Below are positions 22,441-50,497 of a stretch of DNA of 64,000 nt, piece by piece; within the stretch, counting starts at the first letter, position 1; every line of letters starts with the position of its first letter. The position numbers and the translations under genes are program-made. The notes below the pieces were generated by a model. The model saw nothing but the letters and a program-made list of their open reading frames with translations, was not told the origin of the DNA and made no database searches. The stretch is from Trypanosoma brucei (taxonomy: Eukaryota). The stretch is taken from positions 1,280,001-1,344,000 of the forward strand of contig CP000069.1 in the NCBI GenBank assembly GCA_000002445.1, in the 5' to 3' direction.

Positions 22441-23131
22441 GTGGGTGGCCTTTGCGACCCGTATTGTATGGTGGGTGAGCTAGAAAAGGGAGAGGGACAA
22501 GCGTATACAGGTTATTTTTTTCATACTTTTTCCTATTAATATACCAGTTTCTCTTTTTTCTTTTCCGTCTGTTGGAAGTAACCTTTTCGTTGCTACACGG
22601 TAAGTTAAAAGTAGGCTGCCTGGAAGTGGGTGTGTCTATGTACATTAGTTTCGAGTTGGCACTGACCAACGGGAGTGGCGATCGCTCCAGGTGAACCGCT
22701 GCCAGATCTGCAAACAGGTTTGGAGCCGGTGACATTTGGGAGGATGTATGCGACAAGCCTGACTGGGGTCTTGAATTTTATTCTTCATTTACTACCGCTG
22801 CCCAAGTCCCTTCGTGTCGTGGGGGGTGCACAACAAAGTTAGACTATATGGACGCATGTGTGTTTGTGCATGCATGTCAGTGTCTGCTTGTGTGCGTCTA
22901 TGCTTTCAGCAATATAGCTTCTCTTTTTTCATTGTTTCATTTTGCTTCTTTCCATCCGATAACAGACAGTGAGGGGACATAAAGATAATTTACACCCGGT
23001 ACATAATTTAATCCAATAGAGGGACGTTAGGTAAAAAAAAGTGTAAAAAAAAGAAAAGAGAGGCTTTAAATCCAAGAGAACGAAAATAAAAAAAAAAAAG
23101 GGAGCAAGTGTTCGCTTCTGAAAGTAAATAA

Positions 23132-26084: not shown

Positions 26085-27240
26085 TTTCTGCAGAATTAGC
26101 TGCGGTACCTTTTTCGAGGTTGGCAGTTCGTGCCGTGAAATCATTTTTTTGCGATGGGTGGTGCGTAAACGTTTGTGTGGAAAATGTTTACAAAAGCGAT
26201 CGCTGCGTCCGTGTCATCGTGTTTGGGCGTCAAATCGCCTCTTGCTGTCTCCTGGTCTGCCAGCGGTTAACCCTTCGGCCATTTAGTAAAGTGAGGCCAT
26301 TATTTCGAGGCTATCGAAGTGATCAGAAGTTTGATACTCTTTGCACTGACTGTGATTAGTTCCTTGATGTACTGAGGGAAACATAAAGCGCTTATTACTG
26401 TTTTGTTTTCATACGGTTTGTTGACGGCTACATCCACCGCCTGCTGCTCCTTCCTTTTCAACGTGCTGCCCGGTTTGCCGTTGAGAATTAACTTCGGAGC
26501 TCAGTTGCTTGAAGGCGCTGAACGACCACGTTTGGGGCTGTGGCGAGTGGTGCGTTGATTTGTTTCTAGAGGCGCCATCGACCTGCTTTAAGCCATGTTG
26601 CGACCACTAAAGAAAGGCACACTTGTGCATGCCTCGATGATTCTCGTGTGTTTATCGGTCCGTTGCAATGTGTTGAAGACCGTACAGGTCACCATGAATG
26701 CTGCTTCAGAACCAAGCGGGAGAAGAGTACAGACAACATAGGCGGTGTTTTTGTGTGCCGCAGCATGCTGTGCGGTTACTTGTGTGGAATAAGTTGGAGG
26801 AACTCTCTGGAACAATGGGCTTGAAATGTCGAGTTCCACATACTGGTACACTGTGCACATTAACCAGCTATAAGATGAGTGACGGTTGGAGTCGAAGTAC
26901 ACTAATTCTTGCGCCACTAGGTTTACCTGTAACCGTTCTCGGTTGATACAGATTGGTCTAATCACTTTTTATTAGCTGTGCACCGGTCCATGCACTCGAC
27001 TTCATGCTGAAGCATCATTAACTACCTGTTCAGCTTCCGGGTGATCCAATCGCTCGCAGATTTCACCGAGTGGACGCCGCTACGTGCAGCTACTCGGTGC
27101 GTTGTGAGGTCACTTGACGATGGCGGTTTGTGGCAAAGGTGGCAATGAATTCGGAAGTGGCGTGTTGTTTCGTTTTGCCACGTTATAACCTACCAAGGTG
27201 CGTGTCTGGAGGTGAAAGTGACCGTTTTCGTTGCCTTGTT

Positions 27241-27383
27241 GCCTCCCAACTTCTCTTTATTTTCTTCCGTATACATAATACGGCTAATACCGCTGTTCCC
27301 CTTTTCGACATTTTTTTTGTCTCCTTTCCCACTGCTTTGTTTAATTAATTCTAACCCTCATTTTTCGTTGCTGTATTTTGAAG
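27241..27383 (+). promoter_or_regulatory. polypyrimidine tract plus AG trans-splice acceptor candidate upstream of the L9 gene
   Basis: Long C/T-rich run (cctcccaacttctctttattttcttcc ... tttttcgttgctgtattttgaAGgcAG) ending 20-25 nt before the ATG. This is the generic kinetoplastid SL-addition signal. Confidence 0.4.
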
Positions 27384-27405
27384 GCAGAGGGGAACCGTAA
27401 AGAAT

Positions 27406-27969
27406 ATGAAGATCAAGTCGCACGACCAAATCACCTTCCCTGAGGATGTCACCGTCTCCGTAAAAGACCGCATCGTAACGGTGAAGGGGAAGCGTGGCAC
27501 GCTCACAAAGGACTTGCGTCATCTGCAACTTGACTTCCGCGTGAACAAGAAGCTCCGTACCTTCACTGCGGTTCGTTGGTTTGGTAACAAGATCAATAAC
27601 TCAACCATCAACACCGCGCTCTCGCACGTGCGCAACATGATCACTGGTGTTACAAAAGGGTTCCGCTTCAAGGTGCGTTTCGCATACGCTCACTTTCCCA
27701 TTTCTGTGACGGTGGAAAACCAATTGGTGGAGATCCGTAACTTCCTTGGGGAGAAGCGTGTCCGCCGACAAGTGGTGGCAGACGACGTGAAGGTCTATCG
27801 TACGGATGCTGCACTTGTCAAGGATGAGCTCGTGCTCGAGGGGAATGACTTGGAACAGGTGTCTCGTGAGGCTGCTGTGATGCATCAGCTCTGCCTAGTG
27901 AAGAAGAAGGATATCCGTAAGGTTCTTGGACGGCATCTACGTGCAGACAAAGACCAACATCGAAGTTGA
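27406..27969 (+). CDS. RPL9: 60S ribosomal protein L9 (uL6); the C-terminal ~15 codons are out of frame relative to the conserved ending
   Basis: Near full-length match to eukaryotic L9 (MKIKSHDQITFPEDV...AYAHFPISVTVENQLVEIRNFLGEKRVRRQVV...LEGNDLEQVSREAA). After KKKDIRK the ORF reads VLGRHLRADKDQHRS-stop. The adjacent frame reads FLDGIYVQTKTNIEVDE-stop (taa ~27975), which matches the conserved L9 C-terminus. Confidence 0.85.
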   Translation: MKIKSHDQITFPEDVTVSVKDRIVTVKGKRGTLTKDLRHLQLDFRVNKKLRTFTAVRWFGNKINNSTINTALSHVRNMITGVTKGFRFKVRFAYAHFPISVTVENQLVEIRNFLGEKRVRRQVVADDVKVYRTDAALVKDELVLEGNDLEQVSREAAVMHQLCLVKKKDIRKVLGRHLRADKDQHRS

Positions 27970-28861
27970 TGAGTAAGAGGATTTCTCCCTTTCTGACCTG
28001 CCACATTTTTTTCTTTTTCCTTTTCATCTTATTTACTCATTTTGCGTCGAAATACTGTTCCTACCAAGGAGTTTCTTCGGTGGCCATGGGTGTCTTCGAT
28101 GGTTCGAATAAACCGACGCCCACCCCTGCATTGTAGTCTGGTGATCCCCTGGAGATGCCACATTAAGTATAACTTTCTCATATTTTTCTAATTTACATTC
28201 CCTACGCGTCTTGCGCTTGGGAGTCGAAGGAAGGTCATGAAGTTTCCTCTCAGCTATCTAGAACTTACGGGAGGAATCCCCTCTGTAGTGTTTTCGGTGG
28301 AGGGCGGGATAACGCTTCCACATAAATACACTTCCTCCGGTATTTCTTACTGTCTTGTTGGGCGTAGGCGCTGCTGTTGAGGGTGTGAGTGATGGGACGG
28401 CGGTTAATGCTGTTACTGAGCTGTAAGCGGGGCGGATGGATAATGCCACTTCATCATCCCGCTGCTTCAATGTTTTCAGCGCCTCTTAGTTACCGGCGGC
28501 TGTCGGCGTGGCGTGTAGGTCCTTCCACGGAGATCTTCTCTGCTTGTAACTACACAAGTTTTTATACTTGCGGCGGCGTATTTCACGTTGCGATGCCTGA
28601 GCTATTTCGTATTCAACTTAGGCGTTCACCGTTTGCTTCACCCGGGTTGAGTTACACGCGGTAGAAGACATTAATACATGTTACATTAAAAGTGGACGGA
28701 TATTTCTTTTTTGTTTTCTTTATTTTTTACCTTCTCTGTGCTGTTACGTTGTTTCGGGAATCCACACTCCTTTGTGTAGGGGCTGCACCCACGGTAACAA
28801 AAAAGGGGGTAGAACATAGAGACAGCACGTGGCGTGCGGGCGTTGGCTCCTTATCTGAGCC

Positions 28862-30630: not shown

Positions 30631-32652
30631 ATGACGCACGTTGGTGCTGCGCACAGCTTGCCTCCTCAATTTGATTCGCTTAGCCCAGAGGAGGTTGACA
30701 TGCTTCGTGACTCTTTCATTTATATGGACCGTGATAACGATGGTCACGTGAGTAAGGCTGAGTTACTTGATATGGTCTTTCGCTGTGTGGGTGAGGAGCG
30801 GTATGGACCATTGGTTTCGTACCTTCTTCCGCTGTTCGATGTGGCCGACAAGGATGGTGATGGCAAATTGAGTCTCGCCGAGTTCGTAATGTCTTTTGTT
30901 GATGGTCCTGGTGTTGTCCCGGCGGAGGTAATAAATAGCTGCGTGTCGTCAATTCGCGTTCGTCTCACAGATGAAGAGATTGTAACGCTGCAGGATTCGT
31001 TTCGCCGCATCGACACGAAGGCTGATGGCTACATAGACAGGGAGGAACTGCTTGCTGCTCTTAAGGAGAATCTCAAGGATACATTCCCCGATCTGAGAGA
31101 GAACAACTTTAATGACATCGTCGCCGTTATTATGGCCAGCGCGGATGTGGACAACGACGGTCGCTTATGCTTATCAGAGTTCATTCGTTCTTTTCAAGAA
31201 GACCAAGGCGTGTTGCCAGCCGTGTTTGTGGATGCAAGATCGAATGGCTTTGTGCAACATCTTTCACCGGCGGAGGTTGAGGTTCTCCGGGAGGCCTTTG
31301 CGACATTGGACAAAAACCACGATGGTTATGTGGAGTTTGCTGATATATACGAGTCGCTGTGGGAGGCCGTCTCCGACGAAAACTACGACAAAAATCAAAT
31401 ATATGAGCTCTGTGATCTCATAATGGTCACAACAGACCGCAGCAAAAGCGGCGTCCTAACTCTGGGGGACTTTGTTCGGGGGTTTATTCGTAACGTCACC
31501 TTGGTGCAACTTCCCGTCGCAACTGCACATGAAGAAATACTACGTTGTTGCGAACGTGTGCAACTGTTGTTCGAGAGTGGTGAGCTGGAGCGGCTTTCAG
31601 GGTACACTGAAACTGGTGAAAACACAACGAAATGTGTAAATCCTGGTGGCCTCGTGTCTGTACTTAGCAACGTGTTTCGCGATGGCTTCCCTCTGCTGGA
31701 GGAAGAAATTCTTTCATCCGTAATAGGTGCCCTCGTGGCTGCGTCTGAAAACGATCTAGATAAGAAATTTGGAATTGAGGAGTTTATTTCATGCTTCGCC
31801 GGGGGTCCGTGCTCTTCCTCTGACGGTGTCGGGTTGCTGGATCACGAGAACGCTATTTCTGAGTCAGACGTCCAAACTGTTTCGAGGCTCCTCAGGGACC
31901 TGGGGAAAAGTGCTGATGAAGGCGGAAATGTGCAAGAGCCATTTGTGCTGGAGGCTGTCAGAAATACCTTCCGCGATGATCCAGAGAAGGCAGACCGTGT
32001 CGTGCAGTATGTGCAATACAACACAACGTGCCCATCCAACCTTGGTTCGGGGGTAGGAGGGTTGGGTTCCTCTTCCAAACTCCTTTCTAGTAAGGAGGAT
32101 TCGGCAAGCTTACCCACAAAGAAGTTCTCAGGGCCGGTGCGGGGTGTAGACGCTGCGGTTCAATGTGAGCAGGTCAGTGAGACTCAGGGGGAACCGGAGG
32201 AGGAAGAGGAGGAACTGCGGGTGGCGGAACCACTAACAGAAAAGGGAGTTGGAGGAACATCGCTCGGACTGAGGGATTTACTGAAAACAAGCAGCGGGGC
32301 TAATGTGGGAGCAAAGACGGGGAGATTGCTTACGTCGCGTCCAGTCTATCGTAGCATGCGGATTTCAGAGTGGGCCGCGAACCAGAGAAGTGGGTTGAAC
32401 CTTTCTGATGCAACCATAGAGGGTAAGCAAAAAGGGTTCGACAGCAAGCTGCGGAAGGAGTTTGAAAAGTTTGCTGAGGGAAATGATTACATTGAGCGCA
32501 GTCGGTTTGTGAAGTTGTACCTCTCGATGGAGCATTTCGGTCTGCCGCCCAGTGAGGCGCAGGTGAACGAACTTGTGTCCCGCTACTGTAGGGGTGACAA
32601 GCTCAAGTTCAATGAGTTTTGTATTATCATGTTGCGCCGTGTTGGGATGTAG
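30631..32652 (+). CDS. multi-EF-hand calcium-binding protein, 673 aa, at least 6 canonical EF loops
   Basis: DRDNDGHVSKAEL, DKDGDGKLSLAEF, DTKADGYIDREEL, DVDNDGRLCLSEF, DKNHDGYVEFADI, plus further degenerate EF-like pairs and a C-terminal helix-loop pair. Confidence 0.8.
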   Translation: MTHVGAAHSLPPQFDSLSPEEVDMLRDSFIYMDRDNDGHVSKAELLDMVFRCVGEERYGPLVSYLLPLFDVADKDGDGKLSLAEFVMSFVDGPGVVPAEVINSCVSSIRVRLTDEEIVTLQDSFRRIDTKADGYIDREELLAALKENLKDTFPDLRENNFNDIVAVIMASADVDNDGRLCLSEFIRSFQEDQGVLPAVFVDARSNGFVQHLSPAEVEVLREAFATLDKNHDGYVEFADIYESLWEAVSDENYDKNQIYELCDLIMVTTDRSKSGVLTLGDFVRGFIRNVTLVQLPVATAHEEILRCCERVQLLFESGELERLSGYTETGENTTKCVNPGGLVSVLSNVFRDGFPLLEEEILSSVIGALVAASENDLDKKFGIEEFISCFAGGPCSSSDGVGLLDHENAISESDVQTVSRLLRDLGKSADEGGNVQEPFVLEAVRNTFRDDPEKADRVVQYVQYNTTCPSNLGSGVGGLGSSSKLLSSKEDSASLPTKKFSGPVRGVDAAVQCEQVSETQGEPEEEEEELRVAEPLTEKGVGGTSLGLRDLLKTSSGANVGAKTGRLLTSRPVYRSMRISEWAANQRSGLNLSDATIEGKQKGFDSKLRKEFEKFAEGNDYIERSRFVKLYLSMEHFGLPPSEAQVNELVSRYCRGDKLKFNEFCIIMLRRVGM

Positions 32653-34341: not shown

Positions 34342-35988
34342 TCGAGGTGTGTGCACGTCCCGCGGATGGTGTTGCGGCCGGCTCATCGAAAATTATTCAT
34401 AGATGTCGTCGTGTCACTGGGCCTCCCGGAAAAGCTTATACAACTGTCGCTTGCAACTGCACCCAAGGTATAATGGGGTCGTTACGGAGGAGTACCCAGA
34501 TGGAGGGACACCCTGTTGGTGGAATTCGGGTAAAACTAGGCAAACCGAAGCGAAACAATTGTGGCAGAAGTGAACGGCAAATTGTAATTAGCACTTCGTA
34601 GGGAGGGAAGTAGTCATCTGTACCTGAGCGTGGTAGTGCAGAAGCATGCCGTTGAAAAGTGGAGAGGTAAATATGGGCAGTTTTTTTGTTATTGGTCTAC
34701 AAGTACATGTTTGTATCCTTAATAGATGCCCGTGTCACTGGGCTTTTGGCTCTCCCGCACAGTGCACGTCATCATCGTTGACTTATGGGGCGTTGTGCCT
34801 CCCTCAACTCTTCCCACTGCCGGCGCTTCGGGTGTATGACATGAAGTAATGCTAAGAATGACAACGTAAGAACAAAATGATTTTTACATTTCATTGGGCC
34901 ATACATTACGCTGAGTGAAGTTGCTTTGTATCGAGGAAGCTTACTGGGCTGTTGGGTGCAGTTTCTTTTTCGCGCGTGTTGTACCCTGGGGGATGTTATT
35001 CTTTTTTTTTTCCCTCTCTCTTTATTGCAATGCCTGGTTGGGTGGAAGTACGCGAATAGAGGATGGATTGTATTCCCCGTGTAGAATCATTGGAAAAACT
35101 GCTGCTTTCATGCCTTCCTCCCATTTCTTTTCTTCCTCTCACTACAAAACAGGTTGGTCCCTTCTTGTTTTTGCTTTTTTCCCCATTTCTTTTTCTTTCC
35201 TAATTTTTTGTTGTTCACGGGGCACTTCATCCATTTTGATGATAGTTTCAACGTGTGTGAATGCCCCCGACGACCTCCTTCGTGTGCTCGTGTATGTCTG
35301 TTGTTTAACTTTTCCTATTCCCGCTCACATGCAGACACACGTGTGCTTTTCAGGTAAATACTTATTTCATTTCATGATCAGCCTGTTCATCGTTTGGGCT
35401 TTTATACAGTTTTCTATCCCCTTCCATAAAGATATGTTCTTTTTCTCTTTGTGGGGTTATATTTTCATTTTCATTTTTATCTGCTTTGCTTTTTTTTTAC
35501 TGTCTTCGTGCACATTTGACAATGTTCTGTTCATTCTGTTTCCCTTTTTTTTTCTTTTGTTAAGTCGGCCAACGTTTTCTTTCACCCCACCAATGCGCGT
35601 TTTACTTTCCGTAATCCCTTTTCCGCATCTGTGTTTGGCAGCACAGTGCCACTACAAGTGAGTTGTAGCATGTGATATAACGAGGCATCTTTTTTAGTGC
35701 ATATTTGGTTCGTCGGCTGGGATTTTTTGGGAGATGAAATATGTTTTGTTTTTTTTGTTGAAAATCCTCTTCCGGCATTCCTTCATTTGCTGCATTTACT
35801 CATTTCAATCTTTTGTTGGTTCGTTTGTGTATCTCATGTGTAATAGCGGATGGGTATTTGATGAAGCGTGAGAAAAAAAAATGGGGGCGGGTGAATGGGT
35901 GGGGGTGTGGATTATTAGGATGGAATGAAGGGAAGAGCAGGATAAATCTAATTTAAAAAGAAAATTAAATATGAGTAAATAAATATTT

Positions 35989-36014
35989 GATATATATATA
36001 TATATGTATATATG
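35989..36014. repeat. (TA)n microsatellite
   Basis: tatatatatatatatgtatatatgg read directly, within an A-rich block 35870-36140. Confidence 0.9.
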
Positions 36015-36308
36015 GATCGAAAAGGTAATATTTTGTAAAGTGGAGTAATTATCAAGAGAGGAGTAGGGGATGGAGGAAAAGGAAAATGAAAATGAAAAGC
36101 TACAACAACGACAAAGCACCACTAATAAAAAAAACAGATAGGGGGAATTGATTTTTTTTTTTTGGAACATTTGCAGATGTAGTTTGCTTTTTTTTTTCGT
36201 GTGTGTTCTTTGTTCTACATTTTAAAAAAATACTTCCAGACTAGTTAAAAGGGTGTCGAAAACAAAAAGAAATTCAAAACAAACGAGAAGATGGGAGAGA
36301 ATTGTTCG

Positions 36309-36340
36309 TATATATGTATATATATATATATATATATATG
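36309..36340. repeat. (TA)n microsatellite
   Basis: tatatatgtatatatatatatatatatatatatg read directly. Confidence 0.9.
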
Positions 36341-37877
36341 TACCTGAACAACTGTAGGTGGATGTTGCAATAAGTGAGAAAGAAGAAAGGAAGGAACAGC
36401 AGCTGCGAATAACGTGGCGTGGACCCCTTTGAAAACCCACTGATGCGACCGATGTGTTTTCCTTTTTCTCCTTATTTTTCCTCCCCCCGTTTGTATTGTT
36501 TAGGGAGTCGCCACCGCCTCTCGTACAGTGCTGCAGCCTCTATTTTTTTATTTTTTTAATATTATTTTGAAACGCGAGCTGCTGGGCTTTCTGAACCAAA
36601 TGGGCAACTTGGCTGACATTGTATTTGAAAATATATTTCACGCCCCCATCTTTCCTCAAGTAACATATAACCCTTCAGTTGTACTTGTTTTCACTTCTGC
36701 TTCGTGCAGTTTGGCTACTTCAAATATCATCTTTCTAAACTTTGCGGTTTTCTCTGTTTTCTTTTCCGTTTCTCTTATTAAAACCATTGTTTCGCGTTGT
36801 CTTTACCGTGGCGTCGACGTGGAGGAATTTCTGTGAAGGGGGTTTGGCCAAAATTTGGAAGTCACTTTACCGTACTTGTGTTGCGGTGCGATTTACACCT
36901 TCCAATTCAGCTTTTCAGCATAAGTAATACGGTCGGAAGGGTGTAACAGTTGGGGAAAGGAAAGAGTTACAAGAATTATGGGTTACAAGATTGTGTGAGG
37001 GGTATTTCTGGTATTGTTACCAGCTTAGTTTCATGTCGGTTGTTTTATGATTCGCCAGTCGGACCGTTGCGCCTCGGCCTGTGGGAGACGGATTATGAGG
37101 CAATATGGATTGCATGTGAGTGGCAATTTGAATCACCGGTTTGACATCTGCTGCATGCGGCAGTTGGTAACATTCAATCGGTGGTTTACTCCTGGGGTTC
37201 GTATTATAATATAGGTGAAATGAGCGGTCACCCCAGTCGCAGCAAAGGTGTTTTGAGAGGGCTTAAGGAAGGCTAAGGAATGCTGTGCTCGGCGGTCGTG
37301 GACGTGTTTGTAAGTATGCATGCATATGTTCACATGTGAGCTTACACGTGTGAGCGTATGCGGTGGTTTTGTTTTATTTTTCTTATTCCATGTACTGGTT
37401 GACACTGAGAGAGCATGTGGCCTCTTTCACCGTGCCTCTATATTCTTCCCTCGACCCACCCAAATCATCGTTTCTACTGCCCGTGTTTTGATGCTCTTTT
37501 TCTTGTTCCTGCATTCGCCGGGTTTCAGTCTCCAAACCTTTGCCGGGGGAACCAAGAGCCCATTGGTTTGAGCGCTGCTTAAGCATATAGATAGAGAGTT
37601 GAGTAGAAAAGAAGGACAACAGCAGCGGGTCGCGATATAGGAGATTATATAAACTCAAGTACGCACACACACGAATACATACACCGTCTCAGTTCGAAGG
37701 AGGCGGACAGTGGGGGAGGATTGAGAGAGTTGAGGGTAAAGACAAGGGATCACTGAGTGTGTGTGTGTGTGTGGACCGATAATAACAATAATAACAATAT
37801 TAAAGAATAAAGCAAAGAAAGAACAAACAGAAGGGCAGATTGATAAAAAATTAAAAGGAAGAAGGAGATAAGGAATC

Positions 37878-47007: not shown

Positions 47008-48289
47008 TTTTTGTGCGAAATGTAGGTGTGAGTGGGGGCGCGCGTGTGGAGATACAATACGAGCTTGCATTTGTTTCCCCTCGCTGCTATATTATTTCCG
47101 ATTTTTACTTTTCTGCACCTTCGTTTTCGTTTCCCCTCTCTGTCGTTCCTCGCTTGCTTCCCGTTTTGTGTTATGTTGCTGTCTTTTGTTTTTTTGTTTT
47201 TTGTTTTCCTATCACCAGGGGACGTACCGGAAGAGCGATCTGAAGCGAAAGCAGAAGTGTGGCCACCGCACAAGATGCGTGATGTAACATCACCAATTCT
47301 TATTGTAGTTGTATATTGAACCGTCAATGCTGCATCCGCTGTCTCCTTTGTCATTGTTCCGAGATCTACAAAAGTGTACATAACCTGGAGGAAAAAAAGA
47401 ATTCAATCAAAAAAAAAAAAGTCTCCTTACACACACCGGCGCCGCGATGAGGGAGGCCTACTTTTTTCCTACTTTTTTTTGCCGCTATCTCGATTGGTCG
47501 CTTCTTTTTATCCCTATTTATTTATTTGCTTCTCCCCTCGTTTGTATATCTTCACGTAAATGTTCGATATTTATATATATATATTTATACAATTGATATT
47601 ATACCTATGATGATTATTATTGTTATATTTTGTTGCACTTCACTATGGACGTATCGTAAGTGTGCAGTTATCGTTTGGTACAACTGCAGTCATTCCATTC
47701 GTGTTTGTTGTTGTCTTGTTTGTTTGTGTCCTCAGGCGGTTGATTTTTATTATATGAACAAACTCCATTCCGCGCGTGCTCTGAGTTTACTTCTATTTTT
47801 TGTTGTTATGTTTTATTTTCCCCCTGTTGTGCTCGCTGCTTCTATGCTTACCATTCACTATTTTCTCTCCATCTTTTTTTTTTCTCGTTTTGTATTTTTC
47901 TCCTCGTATATGTGAGCCCACTGACCAATATCAACGGGGTTAACACACACAAAAAGTATATTACACGCGGTCCAAATACGTAGCAGAGACGGAGGAAAGG
48001 AAGGGGAAAAAAATAATTAAAACGCAAACTAAAATAAAAGGGAAGGCAATATTAATAGGGGCAAAGGAATAAGTGAGGCGGGATACGTAACAACAGCAGT
48101 GCTTAATAACAATAATAATAGAACAAAGGATAACAAGAGGGGAAAGGCACCAAGAAGAGGGTGTGGAGAATATACCAACGTGGAGGTTATTCACCACGCG
48201 ATATTTTGATTTACCATAGCTTTATTATTGTTTGTTTTCTTTTTGAGGAGTTCGTGACATCTTAGCGGGTTTTGGGTCCCACAGGAATC

Positions 48290-50497
48290 ATGTACCCCCG
48301 ACACGATGATGTGAGTTTGTTTCAACGTTTTGTTAATGATCACAAATTGGAGGAGAAGGGCCTTCCTCTCTATCAACTAGCGCAGCTCGAGGGAACGGAT
48401 CAGGTCATGTTGGGAGTGGATGGTACAAAGATTATTGACATGATTACGCAGGCGGTGCGGGAAAGAGAAAAGATGGCTATTTACACCTACACCACACCTT
48501 ACACGGTGTACGAAAAAATAAATGAGTTTCGGACAATGTTTCAGTCTATCAAAAATTGTACCCCAGTTTTTGTTTTTAACGGTATCCAGTATTCTCCAGA
48601 TTCTGCTGAGGAATTTGGAAGAGAGAAGAACGTGGTACCAAGCGAAGTAGCCGCTCTCACCGGGACGGACAGCTCGAGGTTGAGTAACACGACGAATGTT
48701 CGCTTTGCGGAGATTCACAAAAAAACCGCTAACCGATTTGTTGTGGAGGAGGATGTTGAAGGACAAATTATCAGAATTTTTCGATCAGAATTCAAGAATA
48801 CCATTCGTGCTCCTTACTTAGCCTGGGCTCAACTCTCCTCCTTCCGCCACTGTAACCACCGGCACATATCTGAAGTGTATGGTTGTTTGGAGCTACTTGC
48901 CTTCCCTGGCATTGATCGTGTTGTGACAAATATCAACCCAACAAGGGGAACTTTCGATGTGGTGTATAAGGCACGGGTTCTAGAGGCAGCTCGTTTGAGT
49001 GAAGAAGATCTGAGCAGCCTAATTTTGGTCGAGAGTCGGAGTCGTGTGATGAGGACTGTCACCCTTAAGTTTTCATCACTTGAGGATATGATAAAGAAGG
49101 TTGTTCGGTATAAGGGCTCCACTATTGGGGCTTCATTTGCACAACAACTTCACGAGGAGGCGATACGAGCCAGCGAGGCAAATCGCATGCGTGCGTCCAA
49201 CCAAAGGGGCGCCGCATTTCGCAATCTCTCTGCGTTCGCAAGCCCGGTGCTAACCTTGACTCCACCCCACTGCCTTCCTCTACATTTTCTCTACGGGATT
49301 CCGGGGTTTCCTCATGCCGACGCGGAGTCCTTCGTGGGGCTTCCGCTTCCGCCCGTGTTGTATTACATCATGTCAGCAGGGTTGCTGTCTCCGAGCCTCT
49401 TTGCTGCAGTCTCGCAGGAAACTGTGGTGGATGACTGGCCGCTTGTAGACTCCATCAAGTACAGAGACGTAGCTGAAACTGTATTGCCTCTGCGGGTGCA
49501 AACGATTTACCAGCTCGCCTGGACGATGAGCCGGGGCCTCGGTTCTATCTCATGGTTTCGTCGCTACAACGTTCTCCCGGCACGCGTGAGCAAATTGCAC
49601 GTGCCCCCAGCGATCCAACTTGATGGTTGGGCACTCCATAGCGTCACCGTACCCCGTGGCCTTCACCTCGTTGACGTGATGGAGTTCGCGCATCTCGCTT
49701 GCTCAGTTGATCAGGTGATTTACAATACAATGGAGGAAACTTACGCCGCAATTCTGCTGCAGTCCCTTGACTTACTTGGTTACCTAACGCACGAAACGCA
49801 GGACTTGCACGAGGAGGGCCAGTCAAGTGAGCCGTCAACATTCGGCCGAGCGCTGCAACTGTGCAGTGTGCCCACGCTGAGTGAGTACACCGTTCTGCTT
49901 ATTGAATTGGCCCGCACGAATGCCATCTCCACCGAGCCATTCCGAATTACTACGGAAGAAGTTAGTCCGCGCGATACCCCTCGTGATATTGTTTTCGCCA
50001 GCCGTGTTTTGTCCATTATTCCTTTGAATGTATCGGGACCTTGGACGGCACCCATCGACGCAGAATTAGCAGCCTTCAGTATGCTGTCGCGCATGATTTC
50101 TCGCTCGATACGCCAGCTCCTTGAGGCGATTACTACGTTGATGTTCTCAAAAGGGAGGACACACGTACCTTTGCACAGGATAGGCGAGATCCAGCGGCTT
50201 CTTCCCTTCTCCACGCCTGTTGAGTTTGGTTGCGGTGTGCTTGTTGAATACATGCTCATGAAGGATAAATGTACCCTAAAGGATCTTGAGGAGGCATTTC
50301 CTGAATGCACTTACCTCCGCCACGACCTCGCAACTCTTTTCTACTTCTGGGATCTGGCAGTGCAAGTGCTTCAGCGCATTGAAACGAAGGAAAACTTTTG
50401 CGTTGACCAGCATTGTCTTTCAAGCGCTAATGAGCGAATGAAGAGAGCCCAGAAGAATCTTAACATCCTCACGGGAGTGCGAGAAACATATTATTGA
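48290..50497 (+). CDS. conserved hypothetical protein, ~735 aa
   Basis: Long ORF. cccacAGgaatcATG context. No domain recognised. Confidence 0.7.
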   Translation: MYPRHDDVSLFQRFVNDHKLEEKGLPLYQLAQLEGTDQVMLGVDGTKIIDMITQAVREREKMAIYTYTTPYTVYEKINEFRTMFQSIKNCTPVFVFNGIQYSPDSAEEFGREKNVVPSEVAALTGTDSSRLSNTTNVRFAEIHKKTANRFVVEEDVEGQIIRIFRSEFKNTIRAPYLAWAQLSSFRHCNHRHISEVYGCLELLAFPGIDRVVTNINPTRGTFDVVYKARVLEAARLSEEDLSSLILVESRSRVMRTVTLKFSSLEDMIKKVVRYKGSTIGASFAQQLHEEAIRASEANRMRASNQRGAAFRNLSAFASPVLTLTPPHCLPLHFLYGIPGFPHADAESFVGLPLPPVLYYIMSAGLLSPSLFAAVSQETVVDDWPLVDSIKYRDVAETVLPLRVQTIYQLAWTMSRGLGSISWFRRYNVLPARVSKLHVPPAIQLDGWALHSVTVPRGLHLVDVMEFAHLACSVDQVIYNTMEETYAAILLQSLDLLGYLTHETQDLHEEGQSSEPSTFGRALQLCSVPTLSEYTVLLIELARTNAISTEPFRITTEEVSPRDTPRDIVFASRVLSIIPLNVSGPWTAPIDAELAAFSMLSRMISRSIRQLLEAITTLMFSKGRTHVPLHRIGEIQRLLPFSTPVEFGCGVLVEYMLMKDKCTLKDLEEAFPECTYLRHDLATLFYFWDLAVQVLQRIETKENFCVDQHCLSSANERMKRAQKNLNILTGVRETYY

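What the first reader, a model, noticed from the sequence alone, without database searches (positions are those of the whole stretch)
27406..27977. Ribosomal protein L9 has its conserved C-terminus in the wrong frame (single-base indel near 27920)
Translation matches eukaryotic L9 residue-for-residue up to ...KKKDIRK, then continues VLGRHLRADKDQHRS-stop. Shifting one base (aag-ttc instead of aag-gtt-c) gives FLDGIYVQTKTNIEVDE-stop, the conserved L9 ending (compare human ...DIRKFLDGIYVSEKG...). An extra G in a short G run is the usual pattern for a sequencing/assembly error. If real, this copy would be a C-terminally altered paralogue or pseudogene of an essential, highly expressed gene. In my manual reading, the displayed bases around 27900 and in the T-rich stretch near 28010-28030 also seem offset by one relative to the ORF-track coordinates, so the local base calls deserve scrutiny.
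Basis: seen in the sequence. Interest (0 to 1): 0.55.

Follow-up and report, generated by a model that had tools for sequence, protein, structure and literature searches.

The report
One extra G in trypanosome L9 gene
The chromosome-6 copy of ribosomal protein L9 (uL6) in the Trypanosoma brucei TREU927 reference carries one extra G that puts its last 17 conserved codons out of frame; this is either a reference base-call error or a private mutation in a redundant gene copy, and is ordinary either way.

Summary
ORF 27406..27969 encodes 187 aa. It matches eukaryotic L9/uL6 through K172, then reads VLGRHLRADKDQHRS-stop. The +1 frame from 27923 reads FLDGIYVQTKTNIEVDE-stop.

Exact protein look-ups place the window on T. 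brucei brucei TREU927 chromosome 6. The 187-aa product is already a public entry (XP_845586.1 / AAZ12027.1 / UniProt Q587D5).

Removing one G of the GG at 27921-27922 gives a 189-aa protein. It is 189/189 identical to the uL6 sequence deposited for the T. brucei ribosome (PDB 4V8M chain By) and to the protein cluster that holds the chromosome-10 copy.

Four other T. brucei gene copies all have a single G there: chr6 and chr10 in T. b. gambiense DAL972 and in T. b. equiperdum IVM-t1. The two paralogues differ at 15-16 sites, all synonymous. The +G is the only indel inside a true coding sequence across about 36 kb of syntenic comparison.

No independent TREU927 reads could be reached. T. equiperdum OVI shares the haplotype but has a scaffold gap exactly there. 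I therefore cannot separate a reference error (about 0.57) from a real, possibly heterozygous, 1-bp duplication (about 0.38). Programmed frameshifting is not supported. Interest is low and mainly concerns annotation.

The parts
27406..27921 (+). Codons 1-172 of the chromosome-6 uL6/RPL9 gene (ATG to AAG = K172), in frame 0
   Evidence: Translation. Residues are 100% identical to T. brucei uL6 (PDB 4V8M chain By; P0001). Pfam PF00347 Ribosomal_L6 scores 84.3 bits against a cut-off of 27, with two stretches.
27921..27922 (+). GG dinucleotide where every other T. brucei L9 copy examined has a single G; one of these two bases is the extra one
   Evidence: Alignments A1 and A2 and the difference list. 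Chr6 and chr10 copies of T. b. gambiense DAL972 and T. b. equiperdum IVM-t1 all read CGTAAG-TTC.
27922..27969 (+). Frame-0 aberrant tail VLGRHLRADKDQHRS plus TGA stop (27967-27969), as in public protein XP_845586.1 / Q587D5
   Evidence: The tail matches no homologue (A3). It has pLDDT below 50 in the AlphaFold2 model.
27923..27976 (+). +1-frame conserved uL6 C-terminus FLDGIYVQTKTNIEVDE plus TAA stop (27974-27976)
   Evidence: It is 17/17 identical to T. brucei uL6. F173, L174, D175, G176 and V179 are invariant in 19 homologues (A4; A3).
27838..27975 (+). Block that is identical between the chr6 and chr10 paralogues (137 nt in the other assemblies) and contains the extra G
   Evidence: no chr6/chr10 difference between CDS positions 433 and 569. 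Consistent with this (inferred), the T. equiperdum OVI scaffold has Ns here and one Logan contig begins at 27946.
27240..27405 (+). Pyrimidine-rich upstream intergenic stretch, probably the trans-splice acceptor region of the gene (inferred only)
   Evidence: Sequence. AT skew is -0.40 at 27200-27399. The 5-bp TCTTT indel at 27253 is shared with T. equiperdum OVI. The function is inferred from general trypanosomatid gene structure and was not tested.

Best explanation
This is the chromosome-6 paralogue of the gene for large-subunit ribosomal protein uL6 (eukaryotic L9) of Trypanosoma brucei brucei TREU927. It lies in a long same-strand polycistronic gene array. By neighbour numbering it is probably Tb927.6.4690, which is an inference.

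The deposited sequence has GG at 27921-27922 where the species otherwise has a single G. The annotated product (187 aa; XP_845586.1 / Q587D5) therefore loses the invariant ...KDIRK-FLDGIYVQTK... ending.

The most likely cause is an uncorrected base-call or finishing error in the reference sequence. On that reading the real gene encodes the normal 189-aa uL6, identical to the chr10 copy (Tb927.10.1100), and nothing unusual happens biologically.

Shown here: the gene's identity, the position of the lesion, and that it is absent from every other copy examined. Inferred: that the extra base is an artefact rather than a mutation.
For: - Source. Exact-sequence look-up identifies the window proteins as TREU927 chr6 entries AAZ12027 to AAZ12033.
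- Repair. The protein with one G removed is 189/189 identical to the uL6 sequence deposited for the T. brucei ribosome structure and to P0001. P0001 also lists EAN77540.1, which I take, from the accession series, to be the TREU927 chr10 copy.
- Absent from other copies. Four other gene copies in two other assemblies have a single G.
- No other damage. The repaired window CDS differs from the other chr6 copies by 1-2 synonymous sites. The chr6 and chr10 copies differ at 15-16 sites, all synonymous, so both paralogues are under strong purifying selection.
- Unlike natural indels. Across window 17.4-53.5 kb, compared with 2-3 other assemblies, about 60 indel events were found. All others are intergenic and most lie in homopolymers or microsatellites. 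The +G is the only one inside a true CDS, out of about 20 kb of ORF sequence.
- The hit motif is invariant. K168-D-I-R-K-F-L-D-G176 is invariant in 19 homologues spanning kinetoplastids and other eukaryotes.
Against: - No independent TREU927 read, clone or assembly was examined, so the artefact is not demonstrated.
- From general knowledge, the TREU927 reference is finished Sanger BAC sequence with a low error rate, and duplication of a single base is also the commonest real 1-bp insertion.
- T. brucei is diploid, and real allele-specific frameshifts are documented. In strain Lister 427, 123 genes differ in CDS length between alleles, including 1-bp insertions, and there is no nonsense-mediated decay (PMC8445201).
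- An intact chr10 copy would buffer a real loss.
Confidence: 0.57

Rival explanations
1. The extra G is a genuine, very recent 1-bp duplication in strain TREU927, possibly on only one of the two chr6 homologues. This copy then makes an mRNA translated into a uL6 that lacks its invariant C-terminal motif. That product is probably unable to fold or assemble. The loss is tolerated because the chr10 copy, and any intact chr6 allele, supply normal uL6.
For: - The base is present in the deposited sequence.
- G to GG is a typical slippage-type insertion (general knowledge).
- A redundant intact paralogue exists.
- Real allele-specific 1-bp frameshifts that are transcribed normally are documented in T. 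brucei (PMC8445201).
- The lack of any further decay fits a very young lesion.
- A nearby gene in another strain carries a nonsense change: TCA to TGA at window-equivalent 31715 in IVM-t1. Disabling variants are therefore recorded in deposited assemblies of this region.
Against: - It is not found in any other copy examined.
- It hits one of the most conserved motifs of a protein whose two paralogues show 15/15 synonymous differences.
- It is the only CDS indel in about 36 kb of comparison, and it does not resemble the natural indels there.
- T. equiperdum OVI, which shares the surrounding haplotype and could have confirmed it, has Ns at the site.
Confidence: 0.38
2. The C-terminally altered 187-aa protein is a functional variant uL6 with a new tail that is incorporated into a subset of ribosomes.
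For: Only that the ORF is intact, has a stop codon close to the normal one, and is annotated as a protein.
Against: - The replaced segment is invariant in all homologues.
- The new tail has no homologue and is predicted to be disordered, with pLDDT below 50.
- The variant is absent from sister subspecies.
- There is no sign of adaptive divergence elsewhere in the gene.
Confidence: 0.03
3. The extra G is real and is bypassed by a programmed +1 ribosomal frameshift at AAG-G, so that normal uL6 is made.
For: After a +1 shift, a tRNA-Lys on AAG could re-pair imperfectly with AGG, and the +1 frame is open to the normal stop. This is speculation only.
Against: - The site is absent from the orthologous and paralogous copies, which need no frameshift.
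- The frame-0 A-site codon GTT is a common codon: 103 of 355 Val codons in the window genes sampled.
- There is no stop or rare codon at the site.
- The downstream RNA folds no better than shuffled sequence (z = +1.3; 188 of 200 shuffles fold at least as well).
Confidence: 0.01

Closest known systems
T. brucei uL6 / 60S ribosomal protein L9, chr10 copy Tb927.10.1100 (UniProt Q38CD0; PDB 4V8M chain By, 8OVA, 8OVE)
   Same: The protein is identical over residues 1-172, and over all 189 residues once one G is removed. Both carry the Pfam PF00347 two-domain architecture.
   Different: The gene sits on a different chromosome with unrelated flanks; the chr10 copy is followed by two S23 genes. The CDS differs at 15-16 synonymous sites. 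The window copy has the extra G and therefore a different annotated C-terminus.
Syntenic chr6 L9 genes of T. b. gambiense DAL972 (CBH11973.1) and T. b. equiperdum IVM-t1
   Same: Same locus and same neighbours: amino-acid permease, two hypothetical genes, L9, a 323-aa hypothetical and a calmodulin-like gene. DNA identity is about 99.5% over 10.5 kb.
   Different: They have a single G at the site and encode the intact 189-aa protein.
Allele-specific frameshift or premature-stop alleles in T. brucei Lister 427 (Cosentino et al. 2021, PMC8445201)
   Same: They are 1-bp insertions that change the reading frame of otherwise conserved genes. They are transcribed normally because trypanosomes lack nonsense-mediated decay.
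   Different: Those were phased and verified with reads, RNA-seq and ribosome profiling. Here no read-level evidence exists, and the lesion changes protein length by only 2 residues.
Reference-assembly indel errors that create false frameshifts or pseudogenes (PMC8445201; ILRA, PMC10359078)
   Same: A single-base indel, found in only one assembly, that breaks an otherwise perfectly conserved ORF.
   Different: The documented cases are mostly long-read homopolymer errors or collapsed alleles. This would be a single extra base next to one G in what is, from general knowledge, a Sanger BAC-based finished sequence. That is a rarer kind of error.

Membership tests
uL6 / eukaryotic ribosomal protein L9 (Pfam PF00347 Ribosomal_L6) | Two Ribosomal_L6 alpha-beta domains scoring above the Pfam gathering threshold | tested here: met
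   PF00347 scores 84.3 bits (cut-off 27) with 2 stretches for the 187-aa product, and 87.2 bits for the intact form.
uL6 / eukaryotic ribosomal protein L9 (Pfam PF00347 Ribosomal_L6) | Sequence identity to an experimentally solved ribosomal uL6 of the same species | tested here: met
   189/189 identity to PDB 4V8M chain By after removal of one G; residues 1-172 are identical as deposited.
uL6 / eukaryotic ribosomal protein L9 (Pfam PF00347 Ribosomal_L6) | Invariant C-terminal motif K-D-I-R-K-F-L-D-G-[IVL]-[YF]-V encoded in the frame of the ORF | tested here: not met
   In frame 0 the motif stops at ...KDIRK and continues VLGRH. The remainder is encoded in the +1 frame.
uL6 / eukaryotic ribosomal protein L9 (Pfam PF00347 Ribosomal_L6) | Orthologous position (synteny) with the chr6 L9 gene of other T. 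brucei subspecies | tested here: met
   Same gene order and about 99.5% DNA identity with DAL972 and IVM-t1 chr6.
Decaying pseudogene | Additional disabling or non-synonymous changes, or relaxed constraint | tested here: not met
   None of 16 differences from the chr10 copy is non-synonymous, and only 1-2 synonymous differences separate it from the other chr6 copies.
Decaying pseudogene | Lesion shared by related strains (inherited) | tested here: inconclusive
   The lesion is absent in DAL972 and IVM-t1. The closest haplotype, T. equiperdum OVI, has a 10-N gap over the site.
Programmed +1 ribosomal frameshift site | Frameshift site conserved in orthologues | tested here: not met
   Four other T. 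brucei copies are in frame without it. T. congolense, T. vivax, T. cruzi and Leishmania proteins are all contiguous.
Programmed +1 ribosomal frameshift site | Slow-to-decode A-site codon (rare codon or stop) and/or a stimulatory downstream structure | tested here: not met
   The A-site codon GTT is common. The downstream 89 nt fold at -13.5 kcal/mol against a shuffled mean of -17.5, z = +1.3.
Sequencing or finishing error in a reference assembly | Variant found in only one assembly and absent from all other copies and strains | tested here: met
Sequencing or finishing error in a reference assembly | Variant contradicted by independent reads or clones of the same strain | not testable with these tools
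   No TREU927 reads or second TREU927 assembly are reachable. The window's 673-aa and 960-aa products are not on record in the contig index, and those protein clusters list no Logan source for the TREU927-type sequences. Guessed fragment look-ups found nothing.

The most novel reading that the evidence does not exclude
The extra G is a genuine TREU927 allele, and its product is made stably and enters some ribosomes. That product is a uL6 with the invariant FLDGIYV ending replaced by VLGRHLRADKDQHRS. The reference strain of T. brucei would then carry a naturally occurring variant of a core protein that, in established ribosome structures, lies next to the sarcin-ricin loop and GTPase centre. 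Alternatively, the cell might rescue the copy by +1 frameshifting at AAG-G.
Probability: 0.04. Interest if true: 0.45.

Novelty: already known. Interest (0 to 1): 0.1.

Why it matters
The value is practical. The public 187-aa entry for this gene (XP_845586.1 / Q587D5) almost certainly does not describe a functional uL6 C-terminus.

If the G is an error, the reference and its protein entry need correcting. Anything built on the annotated stop codon would be off by one frame, including C-terminal tagging primers, proteomics databases and orthology or length comparisons.

If the G is real, the strain simply carries a recently disabled copy of a duplicated ribosomal protein gene. That is a known and tolerated kind of variant in this diploid organism, which lacks nonsense-mediated decay.

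Neither outcome opens a new biological question.

Tried and rejected
- T. equiperdum OVI as an independent witness. Its public L9 model is 151 aa and ends in the same DKDQHRS tail, which first looked like confirmation of the frameshift. The DNA (L016) shows a 10-N scaffold gap replacing window 27838..27943, and the gene model merely bridges it. It is uninformative, even though OVI shares the TREU927 haplotype around the gene.
- Logan read-assemblies. Contigs carrying the downstream 323-aa gene (ERR7929156, ERR7929159, ERR7929162, ERR7929163) start at 27946 or later. The longest (L004) starts 30 nt before the first chr6/chr10 difference at 27976. They are also not the TREU927 haplotype (5-9 mismatches).
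- Exact look-up of ten guessed partial products, intact and frameshifted, found nothing.
- A protein search with the 68-aa frameshifted C-terminus returned a single unrelated-strain hit. The word index is too insensitive for short queries.
- The look-up of encoding contigs with the 187-aa product, and with two window proteins (673 aa and 960 aa), found nothing on record. The TREU927 assembly is therefore not in that contig index.
- Literature. Searches for Q587D5, Tb927.6.4690, Tb927.10.1100, L9 plus gene identifiers, iCORN with 927, and DAL972 against 927 found no paper that mentions this frameshift.
- AlphaFold2 models of both forms. The C-terminal 20 residues have low confidence in both models. 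The intact form shows a strand at 180-184 with pLDDT about 66; the frameshifted form has pLDDT below 50 from residue 169. This is only weak support for a structural role.
- Programmed frameshifting, RNA families and tRNAs. There is no supporting signal.

Full report
**What is in the sequence**

The + strand ORF 27406..27969 encodes 187 aa. Through K172 (AAG, 27919-27921) it is a typical eukaryotic L9/uL6. It then reads VLGRHLRADKDQHRS and stops at TGA 27967-27969. The frame that starts one base later, at 27923, reads FLDGIYVQTKTNIEVDE and stops at TAA 27974-27976.

The join is the GG at 27921-27922. tblastn of the repaired protein against the window finds the two pieces in frames 1 and 2 and no second L9 copy.

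**Where the window comes from**

Exact-sequence look-ups show that the 187-aa product is the public protein AAZ12027.1 / XP_845586.1 / UniProt Q587D5, '60S ribosomal protein L9, putative [Trypanosoma brucei brucei TREU927]', on a 1,618,915-bp record. The neighbouring window proteins are AAZ12028, AAZ12029, AAZ12032 and AAZ12033 of the same record. The window is therefore TREU927 chromosome 6.

All ORFs of 200 aa or more lie on the + strand, as expected for a trypanosomatid polycistronic unit.

Two neighbours have published gene identifiers. MKT1 is Tb927.6.4770 (PMC3985637); I match it to window ORF 48272..50497 through its Pfam MKT1 domains in the syntenic loci. A calmodulin-like protein is Tb927.6.4710 (PMC6027440); I match it to window ORF 30631..32652, annotated 'calmodulin, putative'. 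Counting back in steps of ten makes the L9 gene Tb927.6.4690. This is an inference and was not verified; a text search for that identifier found nothing. The chr10 paralogue is Tb927.10.1100 / Q38CD0 (PMC9585242).

**Identity of the gene**

With one G removed, the product is 189/189 identical to the uL6 sequence deposited for the T. brucei ribosome structure (PDB 4V8M chain By, also 8OVA and 8OVE; E 4e-121). It is also identical to cluster representative P0001. That cluster holds the DAL972 chr6 and chr10 proteins, a T. b. equiperdum IVM-t1 protein, and EAN77540.1, which I take, from the accession series, to be the TREU927 chr10 protein.

Pfam PF00347 is matched well above threshold by both forms. 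In an alignment of 19 homologues from kinetoplastids and other eukaryotes, K168, D169, I170, R171, K172, F173, L174, D175, G176 and V179 are invariant. The window product departs from this exactly at position 173.

**Comparison with other copies**

T. brucei has two L9 loci. One is on chr6, syntenic with the window. The other is on chr10, followed by two S23 genes.

I fetched four copies: chr6 and chr10 of T. b. gambiense DAL972 and of T. b. equiperdum IVM-t1. All four read CGTAAG-TTC. Only the window reads CGTAAGGTTC.

Apart from the extra G, the window CDS differs from the other chr6 copies at 1-2 synonymous sites. The chr6 and chr10 copies differ at 15-16 sites, every one synonymous. Both paralogues are thus under strong purifying selection, and the window copy shows no other sign of decay.

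**How unusual the indel is**

I aligned window 17.4-38 kb with three other assemblies, and 31.6-53.5 kb with two. Together these show about 60 indel events.

All the others are intergenic, and most lie in A/T or G homopolymers or in TA/GT microsatellites. Two apparent 'CDS' indels, at 35002 and 44486, lie in pyrimidine runs upstream of the called gene starts of the orthologues. The L9 +G is therefore the only indel in a genuine coding sequence across about 20 kb of ORF sequence. It is also one of very few not in a repeat.

**Attempts to get independent evidence for the same haplotype**

T. equiperdum OVI carries the TREU927 haplotype around the gene. It shares the 5-bp deletion at 27253, the G at 27307, and indel states at 23088, 29970 and 35002. 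Its annotated L9 is 151 aa and ends in the frameshifted DKDQHRS.

The DNA shows why. The OVI scaffold has ten Ns in place of window 27838..27943, and the gene model simply bridges the gap. The gap falls within the 137-nt block in which the chr6 and chr10 copies are identical (CDS positions 433-569), which a short-read assembler cannot resolve.

The longest Logan contig from sequencing runs (L004) breaks at the edge of the same block, at 27946, 30 nt before the first chr6/chr10 difference at 27976. The other three start further downstream. They are also not the TREU927 haplotype.

Exact look-ups of guessed partial products found nothing. A short-query protein search was uninformative. No paper I could find mentions the lesion.

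**Interpretation**

Two ordinary explanations remain.

*(a) A base-call or finishing error in the reference.* The following points favour it:
- The extra base is found in only one assembly.
- The gene is otherwise perfectly preserved.
- Selection on both paralogues is strong.
- The motif that is hit is invariant.
- The indel does not look like the natural indels of the region.

*(b) A real, very young 1-bp duplication, perhaps on only one homologue.* The following points favour it:
- From general knowledge, the reference is finished Sanger sequence with a low error rate.
- G to GG is also the commonest real 1-bp insertion.
- An intact paralogue provides redundancy.
- T. brucei demonstrably carries allele-specific frameshifts that are transcribed normally because it lacks nonsense-mediated decay. 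In Lister 427, 123 genes differ in CDS length between alleles (PMC8445201).

I put (a) at about 0.57 and (b) at about 0.38. The tools available here cannot separate them.

**Rejected readings**

A programmed +1 frameshift is not supported.
- The site is absent from every orthologue and paralogue.
- The frame-0 A-site codon GTT is common.
- The downstream RNA folds no better than shuffled sequence (z = +1.3).

A functional new C-terminus is unlikely.
- The replaced segment is invariant.
- The new tail has no homologue.
- The new tail is predicted with pLDDT below 50.

The intact model places a short terminal strand at 180-184, but confidence there is only moderate. The structural argument is therefore weak.

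**Verdict**

It is an annotation-level matter: a known gene, already in public databases with this odd ending, carrying one extra base that no other copy examined has. It deserves a read-level check and probably a correction of the reference entry, but it is not novel biology.

Noticed in passing
L016:10433-10442 (T. equiperdum OVI, CZPT02000598.1), equivalent to window 27838-27943: The public OVI L9 protein (SCU66692.1 / XP_067078109.1, 151 aa) is a gene model that bridges a 10-N scaffold gap and ends in the out-of-frame tail DKDQHRS. It is an annotation artefact, not a real short L9.
   Followed up: yes
window 31714-31716 (codon 362 of ORF 30631..32652), compared with L002/L011: In T. b. equiperdum IVM-t1 the calmodulin-like gene (orthologue of Tb927.6.4710) has TGA where TREU927, DAL972 and OVI have TCA. 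It is therefore called as 361-aa and 98-aa pieces instead of 673 aa. This is either a real nonsense allele in the tsetse-independent dourine parasite or an assembly error.
   Followed up: partly
window 27406-27976 compared with L010/L013 10001-10570: The chr6 and chr10 L9 paralogues share only the coding sequence; their flanks are unrelated. All 15 differences lie in CDS positions 36-432 or at the stop codon (TAA against TAG), and none lies in the last 137 nt before the stop. On my own rough estimate, assuming uniformly spread differences, this has about 2% chance. It hints at gene conversion or extra constraint at the 3' end.
   Followed up: partly
window 17400-38000 compared with L016: T. 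equiperdum OVI shares TREU927-specific indels and SNPs around the L9 gene (for example the 5-bp deletion at 27253 and the G at 27307). An identical 960-aa importin-alpha re-exporter protein is also shared. The two strains therefore carry the same haplotype here, distinct from DAL972 and IVM-t1.
   Followed up: partly
window 1-64000: All 24 ORFs of 200 aa or more are on the + strand, consistent with one polycistronic transcription unit. No tRNA genes and no Rfam family matches at gathering score were found anywhere in the 64 kb.
   Followed up: yes
window 35989-36330 and 37756: TA and GT microsatellites whose lengths differ in every assembly compared, together with a 20-bp deletion found only in DAL972 at 36516. 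These are ordinary intergenic length polymorphisms.
   Followed up: no
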